Virus record (IMG/VR): IMGVR_UViG_3300045988_182790 | Strand: one strand, 5' to 3' | Origin: a virus | Length of the DNA: 64,000 nt | Shown here: positions 38,154 to 58,009 of the stretch, piece after piece | Layout: every line of letters starts with the position of its first letter | Numbering within the stretch: position 1 is the first letter of the stretch | Notes under the pieces: generated by a model | What the model saw: the letters and a program-made list of their open reading frames with translations, nothing else | Database searches by the model: none | Told to the model about the DNA's origin: nothing | Made by a program: the position numbers and the translations under genes

Positions 38154-38164
38154 TTTTGTAAAAA

Positions 38165-44094: not shown

Positions 44095-44115
44095 TTTTTT
44101 ACTCCTTTTGTGAAA

Positions 44116-45140: not shown

Positions 45141-45458
45141 TCATTCTCCTTCTAAATCCATAATCGCTCCACAATTAGGACAATATTTTGACTTTATTTT
45201 CTGGTTAGCATAATCAGTTTTATATACTTTCTTGCTACAAACAGAACAATATACACCTTCATTTGCACATTCATCTAATAGAAGCCAACTGCCATGTTTT
45301 CTAACTTCTGAATTTTTTATTAGATAATCATACATATTTTCAAGTCCAAGATTATAGATTCCCATAAACCCTTTCATTTGTCCTGTTTCTATGAGTTCTT
45401 CTTTGCTTATATTGCAAGCTTTAATCATTGCATCATATTTCTTACCATCTTCTGTCAT
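45141..45458 (-). CDS. zinc-ribbon protein (105 aa)
   Basis: CSVCSKK...CPNCG four-Cys ribbon. Confidence 0.45.
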   Translation of the reverse strand: MTEDGKKYDAMIKACNISKEELIETGQMKGFMGIYNLGLENMYDYLIKNSEVRKHGSWLLLDECANEGVYCSVCSKKVYKTDYANQKIKSKYCPNCGAIMDLEGE

Positions 45459-45504
45459 ATCTATTCTCCAATATAAAATGTTAGTTCAATGGTGGTTTTA
45501 CTTT

Positions 45505-45729
45505 CTATAATTTGCACCAATCATCTGTATGGTATTTATTCCAATCATCTATCGCCACTTGTGTCCCATGAGTAATATGTGATATACTGTTTCTACCGCA
45601 AATAGGACAAATTAGCTGAATCCATTCCAAATTACATTTCACTTGCGGAAGAACATTACATTTACGACATGGCTTTGCTTGTGTCCAATTTGTGCCTCTT
45701 TGAGAACGTGATTTCAATACCCCATACAT
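45505..45729 (-). CDS. zinc-finger small protein (74 aa)
   Basis: CRKCN...CPICG. Its start overlaps a 17-nt tandem duplication (GTATGGGGTATTGAAAT x2). Confidence 0.4.
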   Translation of the reverse strand: MYGVLKSRSQRGTNWTQAKPCRKCNVLPQVKCNLEWIQLICPICGRNSISHITHGTQVAIDDWNKYHTDDWCKL

Positions 45730-46081
45730 ATTTCAATACCCCATACTTCAATAGTATCAATAGGATAACCTAATTCAGTTGCCAAATTCTTTTTAGCTTC
45801 ATATTCAGACACGGCTTTTCTGTAATATGTTTCCTTAGTAACTGTACAAAATAACATAAACGTTAACATATTCTATCTCCTCCCTAAATCCTTATTTATT
45901 TCAATTTTATACGATTATATATCCTATCATTTTGAATTAAATTTTCGTGTTCACTTCGTAAAGTTTTTCTAAATTCAGAATATGACGTTACACGACCACA
46001 AATTGCTTCGCATTGCCATTCATAATTGAGTTTTTTCTTTACTTGTCTTTTGTTCATATTATTCTTTACCTCTCGAAATGC

Positions 46082-46450
46082 TTAAAAGTCTTTGCCCCAT
46101 TCGTTTTTTTTAATAGCTTCTTCGATTGAATGAGCTAATTTGTTTGAACCGTTTTCTATGTACGAAAATTGCCACTTTCCATCAAAGAATTTTACAACAT
46201 CGAAATATTCTTTTTTTTCTTCATTTCCAAAACAAAATACTTTCGGGTGCGGAATCTCTAATAACTCAAAACCAGATACATCATAACCATCATTAGCAAT
46301 TAACTCTGCAATTGTATCAAAATCGGTTTTTGGAATATCTTCATTCCAACTTATTAAGTGAATATAATCTTCTCCTATTTCTCCTACGTCGCACATAGGA
46401 AACCATCTGTCGAACTCCATAATATCTTTAACATCGCTGATATTGCTCAT
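46082..46450 (-). CDS. hypothetical protein (122 aa)
   Basis: Intact ORF preceded by CTAAGGATTTAAGAAAGAGAGG. Confidence 0.45.
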   Translation of the reverse strand: MSNISDVKDIMEFDRWFPMCDVGEIGEDYIHLISWNEDIPKTDFDTIAELIANDGYDVSGFELLEIPHPKVFCFGNEEKKEYFDVVKFFDGKWQFSYIENGSNKLAHSIEEAIKKNEWGKDF

Positions 46451-46478
46451 ATTATCCTCTCTTTCTTAAATCCTTAGT

Positions 46479-46832
46479 TTATGAATTATCTTTAACCCAT
46501 ATAACAGCACCTCTCGGATGTGAATATGGTATAGGAATTTGATATTTTTCTACCGAACCATATTCAAAAATCCATGCATAAGGTGTCTTATATCTTTCTA
46601 TCAACTCTTCCCATGAAATATCTACTTGATGATTTTTCTTATTGGTTTCCCATAATTGCTTTGTGAGAGGTATAGAGTCTGTAATATTTGCTGTTCCAAA
46701 TACACAACCTGTTCCACTTTTTGCAATTGCAATTTTCCCTCTTTTTGTAGTATTACTTCCACGGATTTCCCAAAGTTTGTTATAATCAAAAATTCTGTCA
46801 GCCCAATAAGGTTTTACAATTAAGATATCCAC
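46479..46832 (-). CDS. ASCH/PUA-like domain protein
   Basis: MDILIVKPYWADRIFDYNKLWEIRGSNTTKRGKIAIAKSG resembles the ASCH N-terminal beta-barrel pattern. Confidence 0.45.
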   Translation of the reverse strand: MDILIVKPYWADRIFDYNKLWEIRGSNTTKRGKIAIAKSGTGCVFGTANITDSIPLTKQLWETNKKNHQVDISWEELIERYKTPYAWIFEYGSVEKYQIPIPYSHPRGAVIWVKDNS

Positions 46833-46859
46833 AATTATTCCTTTCGACTAAAGTCTAAT

Positions 46860-47084
46860 CTACTTAAGTTTCTCTGCTATTTTTCTAATGTTATCAAGGA
46901 CAGTATCACAGTTTCTCCAAACTACCCAACTGCAATCTCCATCTTTTTCAGCACTCATTACTTGAGTTATTATATCCATACTTGCGTCAGACAATTTTTC
47001 AGCAATGTCATCCCATTTTTGAGATTCAATCCACCTTGAAAATCTTGGTTGATAGTATTTAACTTCCTCATTTTCAACTTTCAT
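46860..47084 (-). CDS. hypothetical protein (74 aa)
   Basis: Intact ORF preceded by TAAGGATTTACGGAGG. Confidence 0.4.
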   Translation of the reverse strand: MKVENEEVKYYQPRFSRWIESQKWDDIAEKLSDASMDIITQVMSAEKDGDCSWVVWRNCDTVLDNIRKIAEKLK

Positions 47085-47087
47085 TTG

Positions 47088-47315
47088 TCAACCTCCGTAA
47101 ATCCTTATAAAACTTGCATTTAAAGTTTCGTTGCAAATATCTATCCAACTAAAATCTGATTCTCCGCTCACAAGATATAGTCTTACATCCGACTCTCCAA
47201 TTTCATCTGAGACTTTCCATATCGAATCTTTCTTTGCAACCCCAAATTTATCAGTTATGCTACCATCATCATCTTCAAAAGGAATTGTAAGATTTTCTTT
47301 GCAAACATATTTATC
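47088..47315 (-). CDS. hypothetical protein (about 75 aa; track ORF extends to 47408)
   Basis: Likely start MDKYVCK with ATAAGGATTTAGCGGAGG immediately upstream. Confidence 0.35.
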   Translation of the reverse strand, partial: DKYVCKENLTIPFEDDDGSITDKFGVAKKDSIWKVSDEIGESDVRLYLVSGESDFSWIDICNETLNASFIRIYGG

Positions 47316-47352
47316 CATAGCTTCTACCTCCGCTAAATCCTTATTTATCATG

Positions 47353-47553
47353 CTAAAAAATAATCTTGTTTTTTTTGCTGCATCCCAGCTTCCAAAAACG
47401 TTGTTCACATCTTTTCACAATTCCATAACAATCATATGTCATATCTATCTCTAAATATGGTTCTTCTGGAATATATCCACAATGTTTTATAAATTCATTT
47501 GTTATGTCATTAACACTATGAACTTCGATAATATAATGCTCTAATAAATTCAT
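47353..47553 (-). CDS. hypothetical protein (66 aa)
   Basis: Class-B motif at 47592-47608 and RBS GGGAGGGGGA. Confidence 0.4.
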   Translation of the reverse strand: MNLLEHYIIEVHSVNDITNEFIKHCGYIPEEPYLEIDMTYDCYGIVKRCEQRFWKLGCSKKNKIIF

Positions 47554-47591
47554 TCCCCCTCCCAGTAATCACCCTAATCTTGTTTTATATT

Positions 47592-47608
47592 TATATAGTG
47601 GGTAAAAA
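47592..47608 (-). promoter_or_regulatory. class-B conserved upstream motif (example)
   Basis: TTTTTACCCACTATATA on the gene strand, preceded by TTTTTGTTAGATAAAAT. About 10 similar copies in the window. Confidence 0.5.
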
Positions 47609-47661
47609 GTATATTTTATCTAACAAAAATAGCAGAGAATTTCTTCCCTGCTATCGTGTTG

Positions 47662-47883
47662 TTAAGGTCTTATTCTTATAATTTCTTTACCACATTCTCT
47701 TGCATATTGTACGCAATTACACGTTCCGCCTTTGGAACCATCCCACACAGCAATAATTTTGTCAGCTATATCTATCATTTTCCTGCGGTTTCTTAATGAA
47801 AAAACTCTGTATTCAGCCTGTAAAACATTGTCTGAGTGCCAGTTATCTTCAACAATATGCCAGATAAAACCCTGAAAAAACAT
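47662..47883 (-). pseudogene. possible remnant of a YpsA/SLOG-like gene
   Basis: IIAVWDGSKGGTCNCVQYARECGKEII resembles the C-terminal core of SLOG/YpsA-type Rossmann proteins. Only about 40 codons are free of overlap with the upstream gene. Confidence 0.25.
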
Positions 47884-48821
47884 GATGCAATAAATATTAA
47901 GAGCATATCATCCAAAGATATGTTTCTGTGGCTGTATAATGTTAAAATTATAGTAGCCAATGCTGCAACAATAATGATACACATTTTGCATTTATCATAT
48001 TTTGAATAAGCGGAACAAATATAATCGAATATTGCAAATGTAAGATATACAGTACAGGTTATTATAATTGTTCCACTTTTTAAGTCCACACTATCCTCTC
48101 CACTGACTATCTGTTGCAAAGAAACAGTCCAGCTCTTATCCACTTTCCAGAGAAAATGAGAAACTTTTGACTCTGGATAGATACCGCAAAGATACAAAAC
48201 GCCTATCAACAATACATAATATGACAGAATGGTGGCTTGTGTTCTAAGTACATTTGCAGCATATTCTGAAATTATGCCAATATTTTTTACAATCTGAGTT
48301 TTATGCTTGCATTCTTTATCTAAAGTTTCTGTCTGTGAATTTATGAGTTGTTCTTCTTTTGATTTTTCAAGTTGTTCTTCTTTTGATTCTTCACAGCAGC
48401 TATAAAAACCATATGCATCACATACAATATTTATTGCGTGACAAATCATATTGTATGGTTCTTTAACACAATATAAAGAACTAAATTCATCCTTACACTC
48501 TTTATTTTTTTCAAATGTTTCTTGAAAAAATTCTGGTTCTGAAATTGCAAGAGTATTCGCCTCTTTAAGTCCTAATAATTTAAAATATTCCTTTAAAACT
48601 ACAGTATATAATGGGTCGTAGTATAATGCGCGCACACACTTTCTGGAATCATTGTATTTGTCTACAAGTTCAATATCGCTTAATTTAAGTGTCAAGCCAT
48701 ATCTCACTCGTTCCATATTGTTCACAGTAAATATATTTTCCTGCCCTTCCATAGTTTTTGTTTCTGTTATATCCCTATTATTTTTAATCTCATTTACAAT
48801 CTGAGTTTTATTTGTGTTCAT
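47793..48821 (-). CDS. membrane protein (342 aa)
   Basis: Soluble Cys-rich N-terminal half and 4-5 C-terminal TM helices. Confidence 0.5.
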   Translation of the reverse strand: MNTNKTQIVNEIKNNRDITETKTMEGQENIFTVNNMERVRYGLTLKLSDIELVDKYNDSRKCVRALYYDPLYTVVLKEYFKLLGLKEANTLAISEPEFFQETFEKNKECKDEFSSLYCVKEPYNMICHAINIVCDAYGFYSCCEESKEEQLEKSKEEQLINSQTETLDKECKHKTQIVKNIGIISEYAANVLRTQATILSYYVLLIGVLYLCGIYPESKVSHFLWKVDKSWTVSLQQIVSGEDSVDLKSGTIIITCTVYLTFAIFDYICSAYSKYDKCKMCIIIVAALATIILTLYSHRNISLDDMLLIFIASCFFRVLSGILLKITGTQTMFYRLNTEFFH

Positions 48822-48866
48822 GAAATAGTTCCTCCATTTTTTCTATGGTTTCTAGTCCGTATGTAA

Positions 48867-49358
48867 TTACTTCTGCTTTGCAGCTTCTTTATCCGCGTCT
48901 GTAAAATCGCTTTCTCCAAATACTGAAAATCTATATTCATGTATGCTTTTAGTTGCAATTTCTTCATTCTTATTACAATCTATATCACTTATAATCCCTT
49001 TTGCTCCTAAAATATTCAAATCAGTAATCATCTTTGATTTTTTATATTTTAGAATTGGCACTTCTGCATCCATTTTATAGACGGTTGTTGTGAAAGCATT
49101 ATTACCCTCACCAAAAAACTTATCGTAATCTGTTTTGGATAATTCAAAGCTCTCGCTGCAGTCATGGAAAAATTCATTTATTTGCCCATCATCCGTTGTG
49201 AAATGCAATTCATAATAAGTTTCGTTGTTGAGTGTGTATGTGTCCTCTATGACAATATGAGCTATAATGTTATATGCGCATGTGTTGATTGTAGCATCTG
49301 GGGATTTGTCGTTTGCTATATTATATGTCTGTTTATTGCATCCATTGAGTAACAGCAA
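48867..49358 (-). CDS. lipoprotein (163 aa)
   Basis: Lipobox MLLLNGC. Confidence 0.5.
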   Translation of the reverse strand: MLLLNGCNKQTYNIANDKSPDATINTCAYNIIAHIVIEDTYTLNNETYYELHFTTDDGQINEFFHDCSESFELSKTDYDKFFGEGNNAFTTTVYKMDAEVPILKYKKSKMITDLNILGAKGIISDIDCNKNEEIATKSIHEYRFSVFGESDFTDADKEAAKQK

Positions 49359-49453
49359 TATTACTACTGTTATAGCTATTGTTAAGAAAAATTCGTATTA
49401 CTTTTTCATCCACTATCTTTCCTTTTCCTGCGTTAAAACTGGTTCCCACCATT

Positions 49454-49813
49454 TCAAATCTTTTCGGCATCATTGTTGGCATCATTTTCTTTGCTGACAA
49501 CCAACGTGCGAACAAGTTTTTTCTTTGCCTCTTGTGGCTGTTCGGGTGTGAGTTCGGTCTTAATCTCTTTGTGAGAAGTAGTATTTTTTACAGCTTTTCC
49601 CTTTGACAGCTTGTTTACTGAGAGGCTTTTGTTAATGAGCATAGTTGTAAGCAAAAATGTTGTAAGCAAAGTTTTCTTGCAGGCTTCTCCTTCCTGTAGT
49701 TCGTTGTCTTTTGTTTTTAAAATATTTGCGTGTTTGAAGAGATGTTTGTATACATATTCTTCGTCTTCCGTAAAGTCTATATTTACCGACATTGCTTGAC
49801 TTATGTCCAGCAA
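49454..49813 (-). CDS. hypothetical protein (119 aa)
   Basis: Intact ORF. Confidence 0.35.
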   Translation of the reverse strand: MLDISQAMSVNIDFTEDEEYVYKHLFKHANILKTKDNELQEGEACKKTLLTTFLLTTMLINKSLSVNKLSKGKAVKNTTSHKEIKTELTPEQPQEAKKKLVRTLVVSKENDANNDAEKI

Positions 49814-50127
49814 CTAAATCTTCCTGCCTGCCATAATTCACAAATGATTGCAATTGGAACAAATACATATATATATCCAAAAGTTATCATATGTGTCTTA
49901 GTGTCTGTGACAGCTGAAATATGAAGAAATGTCATTGCTGCAGTAAGGAATATTGCTGTTTGCAATGATACAACTAATAGTAATAATGATGATGTTATAT
50001 ATGCCATCATAAGAGACAGGATTTCATTTGACGTTAATGAAATCCTATACTCTTTATCATGTTTGATATCATACACACCATAACAAAGCAATCCTGCGTA
50101 TACTGGGAGTAAAATACTGTTAATCAT
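49801..50127 (-). CDS. small polytopic membrane protein, possible TadV/CpaA-type prepilin peptidase
   Basis: Three TM helices with conserved-position Asp (YDIKHD, VTDTK). Sits in the Tad operon, but GGGD-type motif not seen. Confidence 0.35.
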   Translation of the reverse strand: MINSILLPVYAGLLCYGVYDIKHDKEYRISLTSNEILSLMMAYITSSLLLLVVSLQTAIFLTAAMTFLHISAVTDTKTHMITFGYIYVFVPIAIICELWQAGRFSCWT

Positions 50128-50815
50128 TTTTTACCCTTACCATTGTTACGTCATTATCTCCAGCCGCATCATAGAATTTAGCTACATCATCTCGTTCCAT
50201 TTCAATTACGAAATACAATGCTGTCGAAGTAGTATCATTGCTCTGAATTTCTAGGTATGAAGAGTCATAAGATGCAACAATATACACGTTTGAAAGTAAC
50301 AGTTTGTTTGTTTTATGAATTGTATCTTCTTCTGTACCTTCCGCAATATACAAATCTACAACATCTCCAGCTCTGATATAACCGTTTACAGCACTATCTG
50401 CTCTTGAGACTGCGAATGATACCTCTACAGGGTCTTTAATGTTGCTATTGATTGTTGAGGAATCTTTTACTTTTGTAGATGAAAGAATTTCTCCTTTTGA
50501 TACTGGAGTAATAAGTCTTCCTGTGATGTCATCAAGCGATGTATATGTGGTTGTTGTTATAAGAGCGGAATTGACTGACTCAATGCCAAAATAGTCTTTT
50601 ACATTTTTTGAGGAGATAATCGTTCCTTCCTCAATATCTTTTAGTGCATACACGGCTGGAGAAATGTCTTTATCCGTGAGGACATATGCTTGAGCGGCGG
50701 TTAAACCTACCCAAACAACAAGTCCAACCACAAGTGTTACAGCCCATTTTGTCAATGACTTGCTGACGGTATGTTCTTTCTTCTCTTTAGTTCTACTTTT
50801 GCCTTTTTTGAACAT
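50120..50815 (-). CDS. CpaB/RcpC-like pilus assembly protein
   Basis: N-terminal TM anchor plus SAF-like domain (ALKDIEEGTIIS). Confidence 0.5.
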   Translation of the reverse strand: MFKKGKSRTKEKKEHTVSKSLTKWAVTLVVGLVVWVGLTAAQAYVLTDKDISPAVYALKDIEEGTIISSKNVKDYFGIESVNSALITTTTYTSLDDITGRLITPVSKGEILSSTKVKDSSTINSNIKDPVEVSFAVSRADSAVNGYIRAGDVVDLYIAEGTEEDTIHKTNKLLLSNVYIVASYDSSYLEIQSNDTTSTALYFVIEMERDDVAKFYDAAGDNDVTMVRVKND

Positions 50816-50832
50816 ATCTTACACCTCTTTAT

Positions 50833-51105
50833 TTAGTTGAAAATTCCAAGAATTTTGCTACTAAGCTTTCCCATAAATGAATCGGCTCCTGGTGCGCCAC
50901 TCTCATAATCGCTGTTTCCAAAAATAATGTAGGTTAAAGCTTTTCCAAGTGCTAGGATTACGAGAATGATTACGAAGATAATTACAATTTTCCCAATCAA
51001 ATCAGACTCGCCAGCCTTTTTTGTTTTGATACTTTCAATGGCATCATCGACCATCATATTAGCTTTTGTTTTTGTTGAAATAATAAGGTTGTCCAGTTTC
51101 TTCAT
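50833..51105 (-). CDS. Flp-family pilin-like protein (90 aa)
   Basis: Short protein with central hydrophobic stretch GKIVIIFVIILVILALG after a Gly. Sits in a Tad operon. Atypical leader. Confidence 0.3.
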   Translation of the reverse strand: MKKLDNLIISTKTKANMMVDDAIESIKTKKAGESDLIGKIVIIFVIILVILALGKALTYIIFGNSDYESGAPGADSFMGKLSSKILGIFN

Positions 51106-51181
51106 GGTTGTTATAAAGTCCTTTCTATTATTGTTTTAAAATTGTTACATAATATATATGAAATATAAAAAATAGGGTTAA

Positions 51182-51901
51182 TCACGACGCAGGCTCGATT
51201 TGTGAAAAGCTTTCTATCTGTATTCGCCTTGAGAATACCTCATCACTTAAGGATATGAATGCTTTTGGCAAATCCAAGTCAAAAGAAAATACTGCGTATA
51301 CTGTAGGAAGATGCAAGTCACTTCTTCTATGTGTACTAAACGGTGAACCTGATAATGTTCCTGATGTGGAGGTTCTTTTCTGGATTGATACTGAACTGAA
51401 ATCTTTATGTTCAGAACCATTAACAATTTGCATCATATTGATATTGCTAACTCTGTATTCAACTAAAGTAGTACCTACATAATCATATATATAAAAATCA
51501 TCAACAGTAAAATCTCTTACATTCAACTGATTAGCGGCCCAGCCAACGTTTCCACCGCTAAAACCAGTTGGTGTAATTCCCATTGTTGTTGTGAGGGATG
51601 ACAAATATTTATGTAATCTGTCATACACCTCAGCTCGTTCTTCGTCTGAAACCGTTATGCTGGATGCGTCTGCGGAGCCTATTATTTGAAATTTTCTATT
51701 TGACCTATATTCATCCGCATTGATTACTGCAGCGGACATTGTTGCAGAATCAGCATCATTTCGTATATTCTCACTTAAAATTTCAGCCGCGCGAAGATAC
51801 AAGCCTAAACAAAGAAACATTATCATAAAAAAGACAAAGAACATGGATATTAACATGACTGCAAAGCCTTTTTTCTTCTGTTTTACAATTCTTTTTATCA
51901 T
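51182..51901 (-). CDS. TadE/TadF-like pseudopilin
   Basis: Basic N-terminus plus hydrophobic helix FAVMLISMFFVFFMIMFL, as in TadE-like proteins. Confidence 0.45.
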   Translation of the reverse strand: MIKRIVKQKKKGFAVMLISMFFVFFMIMFLCLGLYLRAAEILSENIRNDADSATMSAAVINADEYRSNRKFQIIGSADASSITVSDEERAEVYDRLHKYLSSLTTTMGITPTGFSGGNVGWAANQLNVRDFTVDDFYIYDYVGTTLVEYRVSNINMMQIVNGSEHKDFSSVSIQKRTSTSGTLSGSPFSTHRRSDLHLPTVYAVFSFDLDLPKAFISLSDEVFSRRIQIESFSQIEPAS

Positions 51902-51906
51902 AATTT

Positions 51907-52416
51907 TTACTCCTTTGAAGTCGTAGACAAATGAATTGTCATTACAGCATTTGATTTCTTAAACATTGGTATAAAGTCTGATGCGCCTTTGCCCATCTCA
52001 AAAAACGTCTCACAGCACACTGTTATATCCAGCTGAATTTCTTCTCCATAGCCAAGGTCTGATGTTGTGGTATTGTTTGTATATGAATTTCCTAATGCTG
52101 TAACTGTTCCTTTGATACAGCTGGAATCTACTGGCGCTGTACCGTCCTTTGTATAACCTGCATCATTCAACGCATCAATGAGATTTTGCATCTCATTTGC
52201 GCCACCAACAGTATTAGTCAAATATCCATCACTTTCCATTTTAAGAAGATACTCTCGCGCAATGGAATTTAATTTGTTTTTATTATTGATTGCAACATTC
52301 AAATTGAGATACAAAACAATTATGACTGAGGCTACTGCCATAAAAATCATCATAATCAGTAAATCTTCAAGGGAGCCTTTCTTCTTTTGTCTGTAAAAAA
52401 AATGTAGTTTTTTCAT
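51907..52416 (-). CDS. TadE-like pseudopilin
   Basis: Same architecture as 51182-51901. Confidence 0.45.
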   Translation of the reverse strand: MKKLHFFYRQKKKGSLEDLLIMMIFMAVASVIIVLYLNLNVAINNKNKLNSIAREYLLKMESDGYLTNTVGGANEMQNLIDALNDAGYTKDGTAPVDSSCIKGTVTALGNSYTNNTTTSDLGYGEEIQLDITVCCETFFEMGKGASDFIPMFKKSNAVMTIHLSTTSKE

Positions 52417-52438
52417 TTTCGTATGAAGCTCCTTTCTG

Positions 52439-53308
52439 TTACCATAGTGACATCAAACTTTCACCAAGTTGAAGACCTACTGTATAAAGCGCAAGAACGA
52501 TAATTCCAGAGAAAAATGCAATACTTAGCATTGTTGCCGACTTTTTGGCTTTTATCTTCTCATTTTCAAAACGAATTTTATTATTATCTTCTATCTGTCC
52601 ACTTATATCTTTAGTCATCTCAATAATTCTTCCTGTTCTGAATGACTGTTTGATTATGTCAGCCAGGTCATCTATCTGAGGATTATCAAAACGCATTTTG
52701 AAAACGGAAATGGCCTCTTCCATTGTCATTTTTCGAGACAGGATATTGTTATTAAGTTCTGTAAGCGCTTTTTTCAATCGTTTGTTAGTTACGGAACGCT
52801 GACAGTCAATCAATGAGTCGCCGATAAAAAGTCCAGCTCTCGCCTCTGTTTTTAATGTGCTGTAAATGGTGACAATATCGTCTTCCATCTCAAGATTATC
52901 TTTTCTGTTCTTCGATTTAGCATTAACATCTGGTAACATAAATCCTACGAAAAACATCAGTATTGCGCCAAGAATTTTTATAGTGAATGTTGGTGCTACA
53001 ATAAGTGTTGCAATAGATGTCAATGCGCCATAAATTATTTTTTCGAAGATGAATGTTACAGGGTCAAGTTCATAATCATTACGCCTGTACATAATTCCTG
53101 TCTGGGAAAGAAAAGCTTCTAATGAACTTTTGTTAAAATAAGATTTCTTCCCCTCGACTGAATCCATTTTGCTTTTTATTGCTTCTTTTGACAGTGCAAC
53201 AAATGTATCCGTTTTCCCTATTAATGTAAAAACTATCAATGCAGCACTTATGCAAGCAATAAGAGTTACTAAAATTTTTGCTATTGTAATAAGATTGAGT
53301 GCATCCAT
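52439..53308 (-). CDS. TadC-like (T2SS-F family) inner-membrane platform protein
   Basis: About 290 aa with 3 TM segments and a cytoplasmic helical domain. Paired with a second GspF-like gene. Confidence 0.55.
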   Translation of the reverse strand: MDALNLITIAKILVTLIACISAALIVFTLIGKTDTFVALSKEAIKSKMDSVEGKKSYFNKSSLEAFLSQTGIMYRRNDYELDPVTFIFEKIIYGALTSIATLIVAPTFTIKILGAILMFFVGFMLPDVNAKSKNRKDNLEMEDDIVTIYSTLKTEARAGLFIGDSLIDCQRSVTNKRLKKALTELNNNILSRKMTMEEAISVFKMRFDNPQIDDLADIIKQSFRTGRIIEMTKDISGQIEDNNKIRFENEKIKAKKSATMLSIAFFSGIIVLALYTVGLQLGESLMSLW

Positions 53309-53311
53309 ACG

Positions 53312-54313
53312 CTACTTCCTATCCTTTCTTATAGTGCTGATGATACCGACAAGAATAACTACTCCGAGATATACCAATATTGCTCGTCCCACAATCGTTC
53401 CGAAGATGGAATTCCAAATATCTTCTACAATCATTGATAAAACATACATAATTCCGCATCCAGCGACAGCAAGTATGCCAATCTCTCCGAGGAAATTTTT
53501 TCTGATGTTTCGCATTTGTCTTTTAAAGCTTACATATTCTTTTACATCAGTTTTGTTTTCCTCAATAACTTCTGCATAATTCTCATTGTGCATAGCACAT
53601 ATTCGTAAAGAATTGATGATTGCTCTGAATTTTTTATGATTCACTTTTGTTGACAATCGTTTTAGCGACTCATCTACTGGGACACCTGATTTTATTTCGT
53701 AATAGCACTGTTCTACTGGAACCCTGAGAGGTTCTGAAAGATAAGGTACTGTTCGTCCAAGCATTTCGCCAATTGTATTTTCAAGCGAACTCATGTTATC
53801 AAGGGCATTCATAAACTTAAGTAACTGATTTTCGATATTAATGTAGTTTTTAATAGCTTTTACTTCGAGGTAAATGAATGTAAAAGCGAGGATAACACAA
53901 AAGTTTACAAATCCAATTAATGAATTATGCATCCAAAATCCAATGATTGTGCTGAGAATAACGGTTATACCTACAATCAGAAATATAAAGTTTTCAGCAT
54001 TAAGCTCTGGGTATCTGTCTTTTAATCCTGCATCCAGAATAAGACTATCCACTTTGGACAAAACACCCTCTTGTTCAGTTTCTCCTTCTAGTAGATATCT
54101 TTGTTTGTATTCCTCTTCTCTTATTTTTCTCTGTTTATCAATGTTTGCTTGTAATTTTGCAAACTTCATTGAAAACCAATGATGGTTGAATAAATATGAT
54201 ACAAAGAAAAATGCAGAAATAATAAACACAATCGCTAAGGCAATCTGCAAATAAGCAAGTATGGGATTTGCAAGCCAAATTGATTCAAAGTACTGAATAA
54301 TTTTTTCTTTCAT
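53312..54313 (-). CDS. TadB-like (T2SS-F family) inner-membrane platform protein
   Basis: Same family architecture as 52439-53308. Confidence 0.55.
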   Translation of the reverse strand: MKEKIIQYFESIWLANPILAYLQIALAIVFIISAFFFVSYLFNHHWFSMKFAKLQANIDKQRKIREEEYKQRYLLEGETEQEGVLSKVDSLILDAGLKDRYPELNAENFIFLIVGITVILSTIIGFWMHNSLIGFVNFCVILAFTFIYLEVKAIKNYINIENQLLKFMNALDNMSSLENTIGEMLGRTVPYLSEPLRVPVEQCYYEIKSGVPVDESLKRLSTKVNHKKFRAIINSLRICAMHNENYAEVIEENKTDVKEYVSFKRQMRNIRKNFLGEIGILAVAGCGIMYVLSMIVEDIWNSIFGTIVGRAILVYLGVVILVGIISTIRKDRK

Positions 54314-54318
54314 AGTTC

Positions 54319-55710
54319 CTACTCCTTATCTGTATCTTCTACAATATCGCTTTCCTGAACTGGTTCTGATTTATCTTCTGGAACATTTTCGAGTTCTTCA
54401 AGTTCATGTTCTTTTGAGAGCTTGTATTCAATTTCAGCCAGTTCCTCTTTTTCAGCATCATTTGGTTTATAATTTAGGATTGTAGACTCCTCTGGATGGC
54501 GTCTATCATACACTGTGTCATAAATTATGGAGTAGGTATCACCTGATGTATCAAGGCCTCTAATTTCAGAAATTTCTTCTATTTTATAATTCTTCATAAA
54601 GATAACCACTTCCATAGCAGAAAGCATTGTGAGAACTTCATTCATTGTGTACCCTGTTGCCTGCATAATATAGTCAGCAAGCTTATACATAGCATCCTTT
54701 GAACTTTTACCGTGTACAGATGTCCAACATTTATGTCCTGTATATGCAGCCATGGCAAAGCTTTTTGCTTCCATACCCTTAATCTCACCAATCATGTAAT
54801 AATCGTTATCTGTGAGAAGACCATTTCTTGCAATATCTGCAAGTTCATAGCTGACTTTTCCCTCAGTACTTGCATTGACAGGTGATTGATACATAAAGTC
54901 TGGATGGTCACTAAATAACTCGGCACTTTCCTGAGCAATAAGTCCAGAATAAATAGTTGGAATATTATCAATCTCTGCATTCATTAAAGTAGATTTTCCT
55001 GATGCACCCTTTCCAGTGTAAATAATTCCACTTGAACACTTTGCTTTTATTTCCAAATATGGAACAAGCTCAGGTGGGAACATTTTTGCTTCTATCAGAT
55101 TATTCATATCCTTTTTGCGCTTAAGGATTTTTCTAATCTGGATTACTGGTAATTTACTTTCGTTGATGATACCGCCAGTAATATTAAAACGAAGTCTTGC
55201 GTGTTCATTATTATCAACGTCAGTAAATACACGAATAGCATTGGCATCAGTTAGTGATACTCCATTCTTCGAACAGACATTATCAATAAAACTGATATAA
55301 TCTGCTCTATCAATAAACTTAACGTTTGTAGCCTTTCGTTCGCCCTTTCGTTTAAGTCTGATATGCCCCTCGTCATAAATCTTGATATCAGAAATATCAT
55401 CATCGGCCAAAAAGTCTTCCAAAATGTAATAACCCCAAATTCGCTTGTCTAATCGCTTGAGGGTATCTTCAATTTGAGCTTCATCGCAAGTTACTGTTTG
55501 CAAATGTTTTCTCATCATTTTGAAGAATTCGTCTTTTGAGATGATATTCCTCTGAATGTTTGCGAGGTAATTACGGTCTGGCGCACTGGCATAATCAATT
55601 GCATACTTGAACAAGTCCCCTTCGTATCGTTCTACTGGTTCATTTTCAATTGTTACCTCTTTTTTCTGTTTCTTGAAAAAATTAAACATAAAACTTTTTT
55701 GTCCTTTCAT
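54319..55710 (-). CDS. CpaF/TadA-type secretion ATPase (VirB11/GspE superfamily)
   Basis: Walker A TGKGASGKST, Walker B-Asp box DNDYYMIGEIKGMEA, His box GHKCWTSVHG. Confidence 0.85.
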   Translation of the reverse strand: MKGQKSFMFNFFKKQKKEVTIENEPVERYEGDLFKYAIDYASAPDRNYLANIQRNIISKDEFFKMMRKHLQTVTCDEAQIEDTLKRLDKRIWGYYILEDFLADDDISDIKIYDEGHIRLKRKGERKATNVKFIDRADYISFIDNVCSKNGVSLTDANAIRVFTDVDNNEHARLRFNITGGIINESKLPVIQIRKILKRKKDMNNLIEAKMFPPELVPYLEIKAKCSSGIIYTGKGASGKSTLMNAEIDNIPTIYSGLIAQESAELFSDHPDFMYQSPVNASTEGKVSYELADIARNGLLTDNDYYMIGEIKGMEAKSFAMAAYTGHKCWTSVHGKSSKDAMYKLADYIMQATGYTMNEVLTMLSAMEVVIFMKNYKIEEISEIRGLDTSGDTYSIIYDTVYDRRHPEESTILNYKPNDAEKEELAEIEYKLSKEHELEELENVPEDKSEPVQESDIVEDTDKE

Positions 55711-55760
55711 TTTGTTTACGTTTAAAATGTGAAATACGGAAAAAGAGGTTAAAAAAAAGA

Positions 55761-55788
55761 ACTACCGTTGTCGGTAGTCCTTTTTATA
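55761..55788 (-). terminator. terminator between the 36-bp repeat and the Tad operon promoter
   Basis: GGACTACCGacaaCGGTAGTTC followed by T8 on the gene strand. Confidence 0.45.
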
Positions 55789-55790
55789 TC

Positions 55791-55826
55791 ACAACATAAT
55801 ACAGTGCAGATTTTTTGCGCTTTCTA
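55791..55826. repeat. copy 3 of 36-bp promoter-region repeat
   Basis: Identical to 38118-38153. Lies between the TnpB 3' region and the Tad operon start. Confidence 0.7.
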
Positions 55827-55974
55827 TATTATTATTCTTTTGCCTTATTTGTTTTGTTTGCGAATTCGCTTGTAATTATATCTGCATTTTGAAGAATATT
55901 TCCGTAAAATACTAGACTACTGTTGACACTCCCACGATGCTAAAGCATCGGGGATTCTTACCAAGTTTGTTGCC

Positions 55975-57246
55975 TTATGACAACCTTATTCGTAACGGAC
56001 TTGCCAATAGCCCACTAGACAGTTTTTCACAAGTGAAGCCCTGCTTACCTTTCCTTAATATGTTATATGCACCATTTACATCTGCATTGAGAATTATGCC
56101 ATTTTTGCTTTGATACAAACCTCTCTTGATTCGTTTACCACTAAATTCCTTTGTATATGGTTGTTCGAATTTGTACTCAGGTAATTCATCATTATCCAAG
56201 AAGCTGCTCTTACTTGTGTAGCTTTCCTCTACTTCTTTGTATTCAACCCCATACTTCCAACATAAGAATTGCAGCTGTTCTCTCAAAATACCAAATGGTA
56301 CCTGTGTAAAGTTTTGATTATTCTGCTTTCCTATGTTTACAAAACGTTTGAAGTCCTTATTATATCCTACAATTAAAGTTCCTATATCATTGGCTAAACA
56401 CTGGTTTATAATGTATCTAGCAGTCTTTTTAATACAGTCATTAACCTGATTATTTCTCTTAGTAGTAAGTCTTTGAATACGATTTGTAGTAACTTTAGAA
56501 GTCTTTTGTTGTTTCATAGCAATAGAGTTATATTTCGCTATCTGCTTATTCCAATACTGGTTGATTGATTTAATCCTACGACCATCCATAATGAATGGTG
56601 TCATTATATTAGAAACACAGGTAGCAAGATTTTCTACTCCTATATCTATAGCCATAACCTTATTAGTATCTAAAGTTCTGATTTCTTGTTCTACAACATA
56701 GATATACTGCACTTTAAAATACTTTCCATTACCACAAGGAAGTATTCTAACTTCTTTAATTGTCTTATTTTGTAATCTTTCAGGGAACGGTATCTTTATA
56801 TCATCTTTGTAATTCTTTAATTTTCGATACTCTCTGCTCATTGGTATTTTGAAATATCCATCTTTAATAGATATGGCATTAGTAGACAGCACAAGGTTAA
56901 AAAGTCCACCTTTCTTGCGATAATTTGGAATTTTAACATCATTGTAACGATATTCACCTTGCTTACACTTTTTAAGTAAGTTGAAGAATGACTTAAAAGA
57001 CCTATCTACTACTTTCATAGTCTGTTGCGCAACACCAGCTTGCAACAATCCGTAGTTTTCATTATCCTTACATTCGTGATAGTTGCTTTCATAAGTTAAA
57101 AACTTATTTTGAGCAAAGAAATATTGTCTAATGTTGTAAAGTGCTACATTGTAAAGGTTATTAGAATACTGGCATAATTCTGTAAGTATTTGATGTTGCT
57201 CTTTTGTTAGACCACGAATTACATTACTTTGTACTGCATATTCCAT
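55975..57246 (-). CDS. tnpB: TnpB-like RuvC-fold protein lacking zinc-finger cysteines
   Basis: OrfB_IS605-like N-terminus, RuvC-III-like ADVNGAYNILRKG. The usual CxxC...CxxC region is absent. Downstream hairpin CCCGATGCTTTAGCATCGTGGG. Confidence 0.65.
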   Translation of the reverse strand: MEYAVQSNVIRGLTKEQHQILTELCQYSNNLYNVALYNIRQYFFAQNKFLTYESNYHECKDNENYGLLQAGVAQQTMKVVDRSFKSFFNLLKKCKQGEYRYNDVKIPNYRKKGGLFNLVLSTNAISIKDGYFKIPMSREYRKLKNYKDDIKIPFPERLQNKTIKEVRILPCGNGKYFKVQYIYVVEQEIRTLDTNKVMAIDIGVENLATCVSNIMTPFIMDGRRIKSINQYWNKQIAKYNSIAMKQQKTSKVTTNRIQRLTTKRNNQVNDCIKKTARYIINQCLANDIGTLIVGYNKDFKRFVNIGKQNNQNFTQVPFGILREQLQFLCWKYGVEYKEVEESYTSKSSFLDNDELPEYKFEQPYTKEFSGKRIKRGLYQSKNGIILNADVNGAYNILRKGKQGFTCEKLSSGLLASPLRIRLS

Positions 57247-57288
57247 AAGATTTAAACCTCCTTTCTTTAATGTTTACTATACCCTAAT

Positions 57289-57867
57289 CTAAAGATTAGG
57301 GGTTTTCTGGCTTTGCCTTACAAAACGGTCAATAAGTGACAAAATAACCATTGTTTTGATAGTTATTTCTTCTGGAATTATTTTCTGATTTGAAGAGATT
57401 TTTTCCATCATTTCATCGGCAAATAAATTGCATATTTCACAAACAAAATCTTTATTTTCTTCTATGTTTTTACCAGCGTCGTATTCCTGCAAATACCGTT
57501 CGTCTATATCTTCTTCTATTATTGCATTTTCTTCAAAGAAATTTTCTGCGTCGGTATTTATTTCTACAATAATATTGCTTATTGTATCTGCTAACTGTTC
57601 GTAATTATCCTTTTTTGCAGCAAATAATTCGTCAACAAAATCTTTTAATCTGTTCAAGTCATGACCCATATCTGGCTTGTCAATTGAGCTTAAACCATTC
57701 TGCCAACGAAAGGCGCGTACATTTTTCTTTTCTGGTTCTGGCGCAATTGATATAGCTAAATCCAAGGCATTTAATAAATTTTCCATTCCATCTATGCCAT
57801 TAGCCTCTTTAATTTCACTTTTATGCAATTCTTTTTCTATTTGTTTAATTGTTTTATCTGAACTCAT
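57289..57867 (-). CDS. paralog family L protein (192 aa)
   Basis: Shares KSEIKEANGIDGMENLLNALDL and RWQNGLSS blocks with the 24726 and 37480 proteins. No small partner gene. Confidence 0.5.
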   Translation of the reverse strand: MSSDKTIKQIEKELHKSEIKEANGIDGMENLLNALDLAISIAPEPEKKNVRAFRWQNGLSSIDKPDMGHDLNRLKDFVDELFAAKKDNYEQLADTISNIIVEINTDAENFFEENAIIEEDIDERYLQEYDAGKNIEENKDFVCEICNLFADEMMEKISSNQKIIPEEITIKTMVILSLIDRFVRQSQKTPNL

Positions 57868-58009
57868 GAATTTACCTCTTAATATTATTCTTTTTATTTA
57901 TTGTAGGTATTTTTTGGTATTTATTCAACGCAATTAGTGTCCTTAATTTATTTACAGAACTCATATTTATTATATCTAAACAATTTCATATATTTAAAGG
58001 AGGGAATAC

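What the first reader, a model, noticed from the sequence alone, without database searches (positions are those of the whole stretch)
47793..55710. Complete Tad/Flp-type pilus operon embedded among replication and structural genes
The run reads CpaF/TadA ATPase, two T2SS-F platform proteins (TadB, TadC), two TadE-like pseudopilins, a Flp-like small pilin, CpaB, and a small TadV-like membrane protein, followed by a lipoprotein and a membrane protein. The strand and promoter motifs are the same as the surrounding phage-like genes. A tight-adherence pilus cluster inside what otherwise looks like a phage or plasmid replication/structural region is unexpected. It could be a pilus used for host adhesion, DNA transfer or exclusion. 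The operon promoter shares a 36-bp element with two other loci, suggesting coordinated control.
Basis: partly seen in the sequence, partly recalled or inferred. Interest (0 to 1): 0.75.

Follow-up and report, generated by a model that had tools for sequence, protein, structure and literature searches.

The report
Tad-type pilus genes on giant plasmid-like element
A real set of genes for building a thin adhesive (Tad/Flp-type) pilus sits on a large, mostly uncharacterised mobile DNA element of gut Lachnospiraceae that looks more like a plasmid than a phage, which makes it a new example of a known arrangement.

Summary
The gene run is real. Eight tightly packed minus-strand genes (49801-55710) encode a CpaF/TadA-like ATPase, two TadB/TadC-like platform proteins, two pilin-like proteins, a small Flp-like prepilin, a CpaB-like SAF protein and a prepilin-peptidase homolog. 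The same order recurs in at least six related contigs (ATPase identity 48-73%) and in chromosomal Lachnospiraceae loci (44-48%).

The cluster is not complete. The peptidase gene stops at codon 108 of about 210 and lacks the second catalytic Asp. A full-length version that is over 90% identical exists in another sample. No TadZ was found. The two genes at 47793-49358 are not conserved, and one has a stop at codon 4.

The "phage structural" context is not supported. About 94 kb of the 100.3-kb contig, and about 90 kb of a related element, show no capsid, terminase, portal or tail families. Two VirD4-like coupling proteins and a membrane-anchored cell-wall hydrolase are present instead.

The shared 36-nt element is confirmed at three sites. 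At the ATPase copy, however, a strong terminator hairpin separates it from the operon, and the closest relative lacks it.

Plasmid-borne Tad loci in Gram-positive bacteria are already known, so this is a new member of a known kind.

The parts
54319..55710 (-). TadA/CpaF-type secretion ATPase (463 aa), intact Walker A GKGASGKST
   Evidence: Pfam T2SSE 5.6e-17. NCBIfam best hit is the TadA family, 1e-22, far below its curated cut-off. PDB best hit is CpaF, 7e-21, over about 300 residues. All columns that are invariant across 26 homologs are kept.
53312..54313 (-). TadB-like inner-membrane platform protein (333 aa)
   Evidence: Weak T2SSF hit, 3e-3, below the gathering score. Position and length are conserved in all relatives, at 26-64% identity.
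52439..53308 (-). TadC-like inner-membrane platform protein (289 aa)
   Evidence: T2SSF 4.5e-4, below the gathering score. Orthologs in L001, L003 and L015 carry weak T2SSF hits, and the L006 ortholog carries an unmarked one.
51907..52416 (-). Minor pilin-like protein 1 (169 aa), DUF4320-like
   Evidence: The N-terminus reads KKKG|SLEDLL followed by a hydrophobic helix. The AREYLLKMESDGYLT block is shared with chromosomal Lachnospiraceae orthologs. The DUF4320 hit is only E 0.11.
51182..51901 (-). Minor pilin-like protein 2 (239 aa)
50833..51105 (-). Flp-like prepilin (90 aa; predicted mature peptide 58 aa after G32)
   Evidence: The alignment with 8 orthologs has invariant K29, G32 and I37 followed by a hydrophobic helix. 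Orthologs give weak Flp1_like hits, best 5e-7, below the gathering score. The window protein itself has no Pfam hit.
50120..50815 (-). CpaB/RcpC-like protein with N-terminal membrane anchor (231 aa)
   Evidence: SAF 9.5e-7 (29.7 bits, above the cut-off of 21). RcpC 2.4e-6 (27.9 bits against a cut-off of 28.8). TIGR03177 pilus_cpaB 1.4e-7, below its cut-off.
49801..50127 (-). Truncated A24-type prepilin peptidase gene (108 of about 210 codons); keeps the first Asp and lacks the GD motif
   Evidence: tblastn covers residues 1-108 only. Alignment A3 shows two invariant Asp residues. 7 of 11 orthologs hit Peptidase_A24, best 5.8e-7. No remnant of the C-terminal half was found. The full-length 208-aa P0148 is at least 90% identical, and DNA homology breaks exactly at 49803.
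55721..55755 (-). Promoter-like motif TTTTTCCGTATTTCACATTTT just upstream of the ATPase ribosome-binding site
   Evidence: It belongs to a motif family found 30-45 nt upstream of many start codons in the window. It is retained in relative L008.
55754..55785 (-). Intrinsic-terminator-like hairpin (14-bp stem, then T8) between the 36-nt element and the operon
   Evidence: RNA fold dG -17.7 kcal/mol, z -4.9, with 0 of 200 shuffles as stable. It is absent from the other two copies of the 36-nt element.
55790..55826 (-). 36-nt element shared with 38119-38155 and 37075-37111
   Evidence: Repeat family D13, alignment, exact 18-mer at three sites with 0 expected. It lies inside a segment (55762-59644) that is absent from relative L008.
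51150..51184 (-). Second copy of the TTTCATATT-type promoter-like motif, in front of the Flp-like gene
   Evidence: Repeat families D8 and D14; motif listing.

Best explanation
The cluster at 49801-55710 encodes a Tad/Flp-type (type IVc) pilus assembly machine of the kind found on Lachnospiraceae chromosomes. It is carried here by a large extrachromosomal element that looks plasmid-like. The contig is 100.3 kb, and contigs of relatives reach 254 kb.

Inferred mechanism, based on established Tad biology:
- A hexameric CpaF/TadA-like ATPase drives a TadB/TadC-like membrane platform.
- The platform polymerises a Flp-like pilin of about 58 aa, once a prepilin peptidase has cut the prepilin after G32.
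- Two larger pilin-like proteins probably prime or tip the filament.
- A membrane-anchored CpaB-like SAF protein is part of the envelope complex.

The filament most likely changes how the host cell sticks to surfaces or to other cells. That would help the element by improving host colonisation or by bringing cells into contact for transfer.

In this copy the element's own peptidase gene is cut in half. Pilin processing would therefore depend on a host Tad peptidase, or the system is inactive in this strain.

Shown here: gene content, order, conservation, the truncation and the context. Inferred: assembly, pilin cleavage site, function and host.
For: Synteny is conserved at decreasing protein identity:
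- L008: 73/64/63/72/58/51/72% across the seven full-length genes.
- L001 and L017: 56-58% for the ATPase, 30-48% for the other genes.
- L003 and L013: 52-53% for the ATPase, 26-38% for the rest.
- L015: 48% ATPase identity, with a weak A24 peptidase hit.
- Chromosomal loci L006, L020 and L023 have the same gene order and sit among polysaccharide-synthesis and metH genes.

The ATPases of the element type form one clade of about 40 clusters, separate from the chromosomal clade.

The pilin-like N-termini and the invariant K-x-x-G site are shown. The two-Asp peptidase family is shown.

Evidence for a plasmid-like carrier:
- No virion or packaging family appears in about 94 kb of the contig, nor in about 90 kb upstream of the cluster in a relative.
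- Two VirD4-like proteins lie on the same contig, with PF02534 and PF12696 hits. JGI names a member of the same 90% cluster VirD4.
- A 1512-aa protein carries a membrane helix, NlpC/P60-like motifs (read from the sequence) and a weak Glucosaminidase hit.
- Published precedent: the C. acnes plasmid pIMPLE-HL096PA1 carries RcpC-TadZ-TadA-TadB-TadC-Flp-TadE behind a sigma-70 gene, with Clostridium leptum homologs (PMC3666418). Relatives of this element also have a sigma-70 gene upstream of the cluster.
Against: - Most component hits are below curated cut-offs: T2SSF twice, RcpC marginally, Flp1_like only in orthologs, and no TadE hit.
- No TadZ/CpaE is present.
- The peptidase is truncated and a neighbouring gene has a nonsense codon. 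This copy may be decaying.
- IMG/VR lists related contigs as viral.
- The elements carry gene types common in large phages: several sigma factors, NrdD/NrdG with an HNH insert, PhoH, a RuvC-like resolvase and a tRNA.
- About 6 kb of this contig, and probably more than 100 kb of the full element, were not seen.
- No replication initiator or partition system typical of plasmids was identified.
- Nothing here tests function.
Confidence: 0.6

Rival explanations
1. The carrier is a huge (jumbo) phage, and the Tad cluster is a phage-encoded pilus made during infection or lysogeny. It could serve host adhesion, superinfection exclusion or spread. The virion genes lie in the unseen part of the genome or are too divergent to recognise.
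For: - Relatives are in IMG/VR as viral contigs.
- Transcription is unidirectional over 64 kb, with several families of element-specific promoter-like motifs.
- Relatives carry sigma factors, a RuvC-like resolvase and a cold-shock protein next to the cluster.
- Other phage-typical genes are present: PhoH-PIN, DnaE, RecD2, UvrD, tRNA-Met, and NrdD split by an HNH gene.
- Several PHROG families of unknown function match, the best at 2.9e-39.
Against: - No terminase, portal, capsid, sheath or baseplate family appears in about 94 kb here or about 90 kb of a relative. There are no unassigned ORFs of the expected size either.
- The only 'tail' hits come from a repeat motif in a protein with an N-terminal membrane anchor, plus marginal hits at E about 1e-4.
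- Two VirD4-like proteins are present.
- No verified phage among 50,697 records has a comparable cluster. The best hits are UNVERIFIED scaffolds and a record that carries rpmA, ispD and a secretin gene.
- Giant gut megaplasmids have been misfiled as huge phages before (PMC12934698).
Confidence: 0.2
2. The Tad-like machine is part of the element's own DNA-transfer apparatus. It would act as a mating pilus or channel, together with the two soluble VirD4-like coupling ATPases and the membrane-anchored cell-wall hydrolase. It would replace, or add to, a VirB4-type secretion system.
For: - Two VirD4-like genes and a large TM + NlpC/P60 + glucosaminidase protein lie on the same contig, while no VirB4 was seen in 94 kb.
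- A related element also has two VirD4-like genes.
- The best NCBIfam hit is the 'TadA family conjugal transfer-associated ATPase' model.
- A more distant relative (L015) has a Mob_Pre relaxase-like domain fused to a paralogous ATPase right beside its Tad cluster (28.9 bits against a cut-off of 25.5).
- The Butyrivibrio megaplasmid pCY360 places a SAF protein and T2SSE ATPases next to VirB4, VirD4 and PrgI genes.
- From general knowledge: IncI plasmid R64 and the island PAPI-1 use their own type IVb pili in conjugation.
Against: - The chromosomal Lachnospiraceae loci have the same gene order and sit in non-mobile contexts. The ancestral role is therefore a cell-surface pilus.
- A VirB4 system may lie in the unseen part of the element.
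- The VirD4-like genes are 30-45 kb from the cluster and are not co-transcribed with it.
- The TIGR03819 score is far below its cut-off.
- No relaxase was found on this contig.
Confidence: 0.12
3. In this particular contig the cluster is a decaying, non-functional remnant.
For: - The peptidase is truncated at codon 108 by a replacement event.
- The adjacent lipoprotein gene has a TAA at codon 4.
- A 3.9-kb segment including a TnpB insertion sequence sits directly upstream of the operon, relative to L008.
- Homing-endonuclease genes interrupt the cluster in relatives.
Against: - The other seven genes are full length with conserved motifs, including every invariant ATPase column.
- Host Lachnospiraceae commonly encode their own A24 peptidase, and their pilins have the same type of cleavage site.
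- According to Denise et al., another type IV filament class (MSH) always lacks its own peptidase (PMC6668835).
Confidence: 0.15

Closest known systems
Chromosomal Tad-like loci of Lachnospiraceae (for example loci in Diplocloster and Lachnospiraceae bacterium V9D3004)
   Same: The gene order is the same: ATPase, TadB-like, TadC-like, small Flp1_like pilin, DUF4320-like protein, second pilin-like protein, CpaB-like protein, A24 peptidase. ATPase identity is 44-48%. The K-x-x-G prepilin site is the same, and TadZ is also absent from the locus.
   Different: In the element version:
- the pilin gene has moved behind the minor pilins;
- the ATPase is longer (413-488 aa against 375 aa);
- the 650-1000-aa surface protein found inside the chromosomal loci is missing;
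- the cluster sits beside giant S8-protease and LRR surface-protein genes and element sigma factors;
- the ATPases form a separate clade.
Tad locus of Cutibacterium acnes plasmid pIMPLE-HL096PA1 (PMC3666418)
   Same: It is a Gram-positive plasmid carrying RcpC(SAF), TadA, TadB, TadC, Flp and TadE, with a sigma-70 gene immediately upstream and homologs in a Clostridium species. Relatives of this element also have a sigma-70 gene upstream of the cluster.
   Different: That plasmid is 56 kb with 62% GC, and it includes TadZ. The element here is at least 100 kb with about 34% GC, lacks TadZ, and is otherwise almost entirely made of unassigned genes.
Caulobacter and Aggregatibacter Tad/Cpa system (CpaF motor; PDB 8rkd, 9e24)
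   Same: CpaF is the best solved relative of the ATPase. Both have a split TadB/TadC platform, a small Flp pilin, a CpaB/RcpC protein and a peptidase without a methyltransferase domain.
   Different: The host here is monoderm, so there is no secretin, TadD or TadG. There is no TadZ/CpaE. The pilins lack the G/XXXXEY motif and instead have acidic residues at +1 to +3 and a Lys at +7.
Plasmid- or island-encoded type IVb pili used in conjugation (IncI R64 thin pilus, PAPI-1); recalled from general knowledge, not tested here
   Same: In both cases a mobile element encodes its own type IV filament alongside DNA-transfer proteins. This is the functional analogue for the DNA-transfer reading.
   Different: Those are a different filament class (IVb, not Tad), in diderm hosts, and they work with a full VirB4-type system. 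No such system was seen here.
Butyrivibrio proteoclasticus megaplasmid pCY360
   Same: It is a Lachnospiraceae megaplasmid with a related T2SSE ATPase (39% identity), a SAF protein, a cold-shock gene, a separate PHP protein plus DnaE, and a related lipoprotein.
   Different: Its ATPases are 620-650 aa and lie next to ParM or a VirB4/VirD4/PrgI system. They are not in a TadB-TadC-Flp operon. Overall gene sharing with the window is low.

Membership tests
Tad/Flp (type IVc) pilus system | TadA/CpaF-type ATPase | tested here: met
   T2SSE 5.6e-17, above the cut-off. CpaF is the best PDB match, 7e-21, ahead of archaeal GspE/FlaI and VirB11. The TadA-family model is the best NCBIfam hit but scores far below its curated cut-off. 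No reference phylogeny was made.
Tad/Flp (type IVc) pilus system | Platform split into two proteins, TadB and TadC, each with one T2SSF domain | tested here: met
   Two adjacent polytopic proteins each have one T2SSF-like stretch, E 3e-3 and 4.5e-4, both below the gathering score. Orthologs carry T2SSF hits. The split is stated as a Tad trait in PMC6668835.
Tad/Flp (type IVc) pilus system | Small Flp-type prepilin with a Gly cleavage site and hydrophobic mature N-terminus | tested here: inconclusive
   The 90-aa protein has invariant K29, G32 and I37 plus a hydrophobic helix across 9 orthologs. Orthologs hit Flp1_like only below the cut-off. The window protein has no Pfam hit. The canonical G/XXXXEY motif is absent.
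Tad/Flp (type IVc) pilus system | TadE/TadF pseudopilins (Pfam TadE) | tested here: inconclusive
Tad/Flp (type IVc) pilus system | Dedicated A24 prepilin peptidase (TadV/CpaA type) with two catalytic Asp | tested here: not met
   The window gene encodes only residues 1-108 and lacks the GD motif. Orthologs meet the feature: 7 of 11 hit Peptidase_A24.
Tad/Flp (type IVc) pilus system | CpaB/RcpC protein | tested here: met
   SAF 29.7 bits (cut-off 21). RcpC 27.9 bits (cut-off 28.8).
Tad/Flp (type IVc) pilus system | TadZ/CpaE ParA-like localisation ATPase | tested here: not met
   No ParA/MinD-type family turned up in any ORF of the cluster or the window. It is also absent from the related loci.
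Conjugative type IV secretion system (VirB11-based) | VirB4 ATPase and channel proteins, with the VirB11 family as the best match of the ATPase | tested here: not met
   No VirB4 family appears in about 94 kb of the contig. VirB11 models score below the TadA, FlaI and CpaF matches. Two VirD4-like proteins are present outside the window.
Competence (ComG) pseudopilus | ComGA ATPase with a single two-domain ComGB platform and ComGC-type pilins | tested here: not met
   ComGA scores 4.7e-12, weaker than TadA. The platform is split in two. The pilins are small and Flp-like.
Tailed phage (Caudoviricetes) genome | Terminase large subunit, portal and HK97-fold capsid protein | tested here: not met
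   None was found by Pfam or PHROGs in the window, in the rest of the contig down to record position 5958, or in the flanks of relatives. About 6 kb of this contig and the rest of the element were not seen, and very divergent proteins could be missed.
Conjugative or mobilisable plasmid | Replication initiator, partition system, relaxase, coupling protein | tested here: inconclusive
   Coupling-protein homologs are present. No recognised Rep, ParA/ParB or relaxase family was found on this contig. A 697-aa protein reads like a primase-polymerase by its motifs, but it has no family hit.

The most novel reading that the evidence does not exclude
A family of giant (100 to over 250 kb), almost entirely unannotated Lachnospiraceae elements moves between cells without a VirB4-type secretion system. 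In this reading, a conserved Tad-type filament works together with soluble VirD4-like coupling ATPases and a membrane-anchored cell-wall hydrolase as the transfer machine.
Probability: 0.1. Interest if true: 0.8.

Novelty: new member of a known kind. Interest (0 to 1): 0.4.

Why it matters
Tad pili are colonisation factors in gut and pathogenic bacteria. A mobile copy carried by very large elements of abundant butyrate-producing Lachnospiraceae could change how these bacteria adhere in the gut, and it could spread between strains.

The carrier elements are the more interesting part. They are widespread in metagenomes and mostly made of genes with no known family. They are filed as viral in one public database, yet they show coupling-protein genes and no virion genes. 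Sorting out whether they are plasmids or phages affects how gut virome and plasmidome catalogues should be read.

Tried and rejected
- **Nucleotide searches.** Megablast of the 40-64 kb stretch against phage and plasmid collections found only a 150-nt IS607-related match.
- **Close relatives in IMG/VR.** Single-protein scans with the ATPase and with DnaE found nothing. An alignment query was needed.
- **Concatenated query.** A concatenation of six unassigned or weakly assigned window proteins against plasmids hit only a SpoVK-like AAA ATPase.
- **DnaE against phages and plasmids.** Identity was 31-35% to both, so it did not discriminate.
- **Profile searches against PDB.** Profiles of the peptidase and the Flp family gave nothing, or only designed helical repeats. 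The VirD4-like proteins also gave no PDB hit.
- **pCY360 as a close relative.** Rejected. Only DnaE/PHP, one ATPase and one lipoprotein are shared.
- **Phage precedents.** The Microcystis phage MaAM05 record carries a ribosomal protein gene, ispD and a secretin gene next to its ATPase, so it was not used. MT835757 is UNVERIFIED and lacks a Tad cluster.
- **Stop-codon recoding.** Considered as an explanation for the in-frame stop in the lipoprotein gene. Rejected because the codon is TAA and the other genes read through in code 11.
- **Hodor megaplasmids (PMC12934698).** Considered as the carrier family and rejected. They have 44-47% GC, Rep_3/ParAB and sortases. They are cited only as a precedent for misfiled megaplasmids.
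- **AlphaFold database fold search.** Unavailable.

Full report
**What is at the coordinates.** All long ORFs of the window lie on the minus strand. From 55710 down to 49801, eight genes follow each other with gaps of -8 to 76 nt.
- The first gene (54319-55710, 463 aa) matches Pfam T2SSE at 5.6e-17.
  - Among NCBIfam models it scores best against the TadA family (1e-22). FlaI (3e-20), VirB11 (1.5e-16) and ComGA (4.7e-12) follow. All are far below the curated cut-offs.
  - Among solved structures the Tad motor CpaF is clearly the best match, at 7e-21 over about 300 residues. Archaeal GspE gives 1.7e-13, FlaI 3.5e-10 and VirB11 2.4e-6.
- Two polytopic proteins follow (333 and 289 aa). Each has one weak T2SSF-like stretch.
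- Next come a 169-aa protein, a 239-aa protein and a 90-aa protein. Their N-termini read KKKG|SLEDLL, KKKG|FAVML and KKAG|ESDLIGK, each followed by a hydrophobic helix.
- Then comes a 231-aa protein with a membrane anchor. It hits SAF above the cut-off and RcpC just below it.
- The last gene encodes a 108-aa membrane protein.

**Is it more than chance?** The same gene order recurs in independent metagenome contigs at falling identity.
- L008: 73, 64, 63, 72, 58, 51 and 72% for the seven full-length proteins.
- L001 and L017: 56-58% for the ATPase and 30-48% for the other genes.
- L003, L013 and L014: 52-53% for the ATPase and 26-38% for the rest. These include a 254-kb ENA contig and two IMG/VR contigs of about 99 kb.
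- L015 and L016: 48% for the ATPase, on contigs up to 258 kb.
- A scan of one genome per species returned 129 related stretches. The 80 kept were mostly Lachnospiraceae.

Chromosomal loci have the same order: ATPase, TadB-like, TadC-like, 72-aa Flp1_like pilin, DUF4320-like protein, second pilin-like protein, CpaB-like protein, a large surface protein, and a peptidase. They sit between polysaccharide-synthesis and metH genes. A neighbour-joining tree of 120 homologs puts the window with P0001-P0041 in one clade of longer ATPases. This clade is separate from the 375-aa chromosomal clade. The tree has no support values and no reference families. The cluster is therefore an old, maintained part of this family of elements, derived from the Lachnospiraceae type of Tad locus.

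**The individual parts.**
- **Small pilin.** It aligns with eight orthologs. K29, G32 and I37 are invariant and the hydrophobic helix begins just after. This predicts cleavage after G32 and a 58-aa mature pilin. Orthologs give Flp1_like hits below the cut-off. The classical G/XXXXEY motif is missing.
- **169-aa protein.** It shares the block AREYLLKMESDGYLT with the chromosomal orthologs and gives a faint DUF4320 hit.

**The peptidase is broken in this copy.** Relatives encode a 198-237-aa membrane protein at the end of the cluster. Seven of eleven of these hit Peptidase_A24, the best at 5.8e-7. The alignment shows two invariant Asp residues, the second in a GD motif. The window protein matches residues 1-108 only. 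It keeps the first Asp and ends before the GD motif. No trace of the missing half exists anywhere in the window.

A 208-aa full-length protein, at least 90% identical and carrying TGD, is on a contig from another sample. Its DNA is 95% identical to window 50127-49803, and the similarity stops exactly there. The downstream genes of relatives have no counterpart in the window. These are a protein of about 110 aa, a RuvC-like resolvase, a cold-shock protein and a sigma factor.

The lipoprotein gene has a good ribosome-binding site, then ATG AAA AAG, then an in-frame TAA before its signal peptide. The C-terminal half of the 342-aa membrane protein occurs elsewhere as a separate 171-aa protein. The downstream end of the cluster has therefore been replaced in this strain.

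**Upstream region and the 36-nt element.** The shared element exists at 55790-55826, 38119-38155 and 37075-37111. Two observations weaken the idea that it drives the operon.
- Only at the ATPase copy is it followed by a 14-bp hairpin with flanking A and T runs (dG -17.7 kcal/mol, z -4.9). This looks like an intrinsic terminator.
- In the closest relative, L008, the giant S8-protease gene ends 300 bp before the ATPase. Nucleotide similarity with the window resumes only at 55761. Window 55762-59644 is therefore extra. It holds the 36-nt element, a TnpB insertion sequence, a 192-aa gene and a 487-aa repeat protein.

Both sequences keep a hairpin followed by the motif (C/T)ATTTCA(T/C)ATTTT about 25-40 nt before the start codon. 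This motif precedes many genes in the window, including the Flp-like gene. It is the better promoter candidate. Nothing here tests that.

**What carries the cluster?** The window is part of ENA contig k119_147736, 100,300 bp. I read it down to record position 5958. Across this ~94 kb the recognisable genes fall into a few groups.
- **Replication and repair.**
  - Split PHP + DnaE, a primase zinc-ribbon protein, RecD2-like and UvrD-like helicases, and a PD-(D/E)XK nuclease.
  - A 5'-3' exonuclease, RNase T and MYG1.
- **Other assigned genes.** PhoH-PIN, a PARP-like protein, a flotillin, HD and HipA-like proteins.
- **Mobile genes.** Three TnpB genes.
- **Surface proteins.** A 1428-aa S8 protease and lipoproteins.
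- **Possible transfer-related genes.**
  - A 1512-aa protein with a membrane helix, NlpC/P60-like motifs and a weak glucosaminidase hit.
  - Two VirD4-like proteins of about 400 aa (PF02534, and for one also PF12696). JGI names a member of the same 90% cluster VirD4.

Thirty smaller window ORFs gave only three Pfam hits. No capsid, portal, terminase, sheath or baseplate family was found with Pfam or PHROGs. The "tail" hits of the 487-aa protein come from its GYTPVKGVDYFT repeat, and that protein starts with a membrane anchor.

I also walked about 90 kb upstream of the cluster in related IMG/VR contigs. This region holds giant glycine-rich, LRR and S8 surface proteins, TnpB genes and two more VirD4-like genes (tblastn to CD1115-family coupling proteins, about 1e-4). 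It also holds a family of pentapeptide-repeat paralogs, a C5 methyltransferase, HipAB-like genes and NrdD/NrdG with an HNH insert. Again there were no ORFs that could be portal or terminase.

Features that fit a large phage remain: sigma factors, a resolvase, ribonucleotide reductase, unidirectional transcription and IMG/VR membership. No plasmid Rep/Par system or relaxase was found. I put plasmid-like against phage at roughly 2:1. The Hodor study shows that giant gut megaplasmids have been filed as huge phages before (PMC12934698).

**Comparison with what is known.** CpaF-like ATPases occur on 1145 plasmid records but on only 8 of 50,697 phage records, and none of those is a verified phage with a Tad cluster. 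Denise et al. report that Tad systems are almost always encoded in one locus and show a high frequency of horizontal transfer. They also describe the TadB/TadC split and the loss of the secretin in monoderms (PMC6668835). The C. acnes plasmid pIMPLE-HL096PA1 carries RcpC, TadZ, TadA, TadB, TadC, Flp and TadE behind a sigma-70 gene, with Clostridium leptum homologs (PMC3666418). That closely parallels the sigma-70 gene upstream of the cluster in relatives L001, L003 and L017. The finding is therefore a new member of a known kind: a mobile Tad locus of the Lachnospiraceae type.

The differences are:
- no TadZ;
- an unusual pilin cleavage context;
- very fast-evolving minor pilins;
- a carrier element that is itself almost unknown.

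**Most likely mechanism and rivals.** I commit to a surface Tad-type filament made by the element's genes, acting in adhesion or cell-cell contact. In this strain it would depend on a host peptidase, or it is inactive. Assembly and function are inferred from the families and are not shown.

The most interesting alternative is a DNA-transfer role for the filament. The support is the two VirD4-like genes, the hydrolase, the missing VirB4 and a Mob_Pre-ATPase fusion beside the Tad cluster in L015. The chromosomal loci of the same type argue that transfer is not the ancestral role, and a VirB4 system may simply lie in unseen sequence. The phage reading keeps about 0.2.

**Verdict.** The word "complete" and the "structural genes" context are wrong. 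The surprise is modest if the carrier is a plasmid. Interest is moderate (0.4), mainly because of the uncharacterised giant elements.

Noticed in passing
window 38203-42533 (-): DNA polymerase III alpha is encoded in two genes 350 bp apart. One is a 566-aa PHP + N-terminal part (40833-42533). The other is a 759-aa remainder (38203-40482). The Butyrivibrio megaplasmid pCY360 also has a separate PHP protein next to dnaE, and that protein is the best local match of the window's N-terminal part.
   Followed up: partly
window 55975-57246 (-), 20937-22115 (-), 20816-20888 (-); L188 10360-11622: The contig carries three TnpB (OrfB_IS605) genes. The copy at 20937-22115 is followed by a RAGATH-18 RNA (72.8 bits). 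The copy at 55975-57246 lies directly upstream of the Tad operon, within a 3.9-kb segment that is absent from the closest relative.
   Followed up: partly
window 57997-58153: A 150-nt stretch is 82-84% identical to the start of IS607-family transposase genes in an Agathobacter rectalis plasmid and a faecal phage contig. It looks like a fragment, on the opposite strand to the nearby TnpB.
   Followed up: no
window, many intergenic sites, e.g. 24381-24427, 26401-26447, 28139-28185, 47578-47624, 42610-47623: At least three families of promoter-like motifs recur upstream of minus-strand genes. On the coding strand these are TGCCCACTATA-type, TTTCATATT-type and the 36-nt element. This suggests several transcription classes, perhaps read by element-encoded sigma factors seen in relatives.
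   Followed up: partly
window 24434-24498 and 25394-25458: Two 65-nt intergenic copies are 100% identical and 960 nt apart. Weaker copies lie at 37152 and 57940.
   Followed up: no
window 48867-49410 (-): The lipoprotein gene has a good ribosome-binding site and then ATG AAA AAG TAA before a classical lipobox signal peptide (LLNGC). This is either a pseudogene or an assembly error.
   Followed up: yes
window 58098-59561 (-): This 487-aa protein has an N-terminal membrane anchor and four repeats of about 105-111 nt encoding DG..GYTPVKGVDYFT. The repeats cause PHROG 'tail fibre' hits, but the protein is probably a cell-surface protein.
   Followed up: partly
L188 15716-16936 and L189 17803-18990 (same contig, outside the window); L111 4626-5819 and L160 5201-6433 in a relative: Each element has two soluble VirD4-like coupling-protein homologs of about 400 aa without an N-terminal membrane domain. 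No VirB4 was seen.
   Followed up: partly
L010 15483-20021 (same contig, 15 kb beyond the window's left end): A 1512-aa protein has a lysine-rich N-terminal region, a membrane helix, NlpC/P60-like Cys/His motifs and a weak glucosaminidase hit. This architecture recalls the cell-wall hydrolases of Gram-positive conjugative elements.
   Followed up: no
L001 14637-16166; L187 1-516: RRXRR/HNH-type homing-endonuclease genes are inserted inside the Tad cluster in relatives. One lies between the second minor pilin and Flp. The other lies just upstream of the peptidase.
   Followed up: no
L015 6138-8009; L005 11284-13146; L098 1552-3486: A paralogous 620-644-aa ATPase has a long N-terminal extension. 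In L015 that extension hits the Mob_Pre relaxase family (28.9 bits against a cut-off of 25.5). It lies beside the Tad cluster in L015, beside ParM in pCY360, and in an UNVERIFIED faecal 'phage' scaffold.
   Followed up: partly
L099 (Microcystis phage MaAM05, MW495066.1 14639-33709): This 274-kb 'phage' record has a Tad-like run (secretin, CheB-like receiver protein, ATPase, two ~320-aa proteins) next to thiL, ispD, ruvA and rpmA. The region looks like bacterial chromosome.
   Followed up: no
L125 and L160 (IMG/VR UViG_3300045988_182473, about 50-70 kb): A family of at least six tandem paralogs (284-488 aa) has a conserved N-terminal domain followed by NTGNxN pentapeptide-like repeats. Local clustering found 275 copies across the fetched loci.
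   Followed up: no
window 9109-10401, 31206-32786, 33017-34372, 22559-22636: The element encodes a PARP-catalytic-domain protein, a flotillin/SPFH protein, a PIN-PhoH fusion and a tRNA-Met. One of the small ORFs also gives a PTS-HPr hit (2e-6). Which ORF it was could not be told from the batch scan.
   Followed up: no
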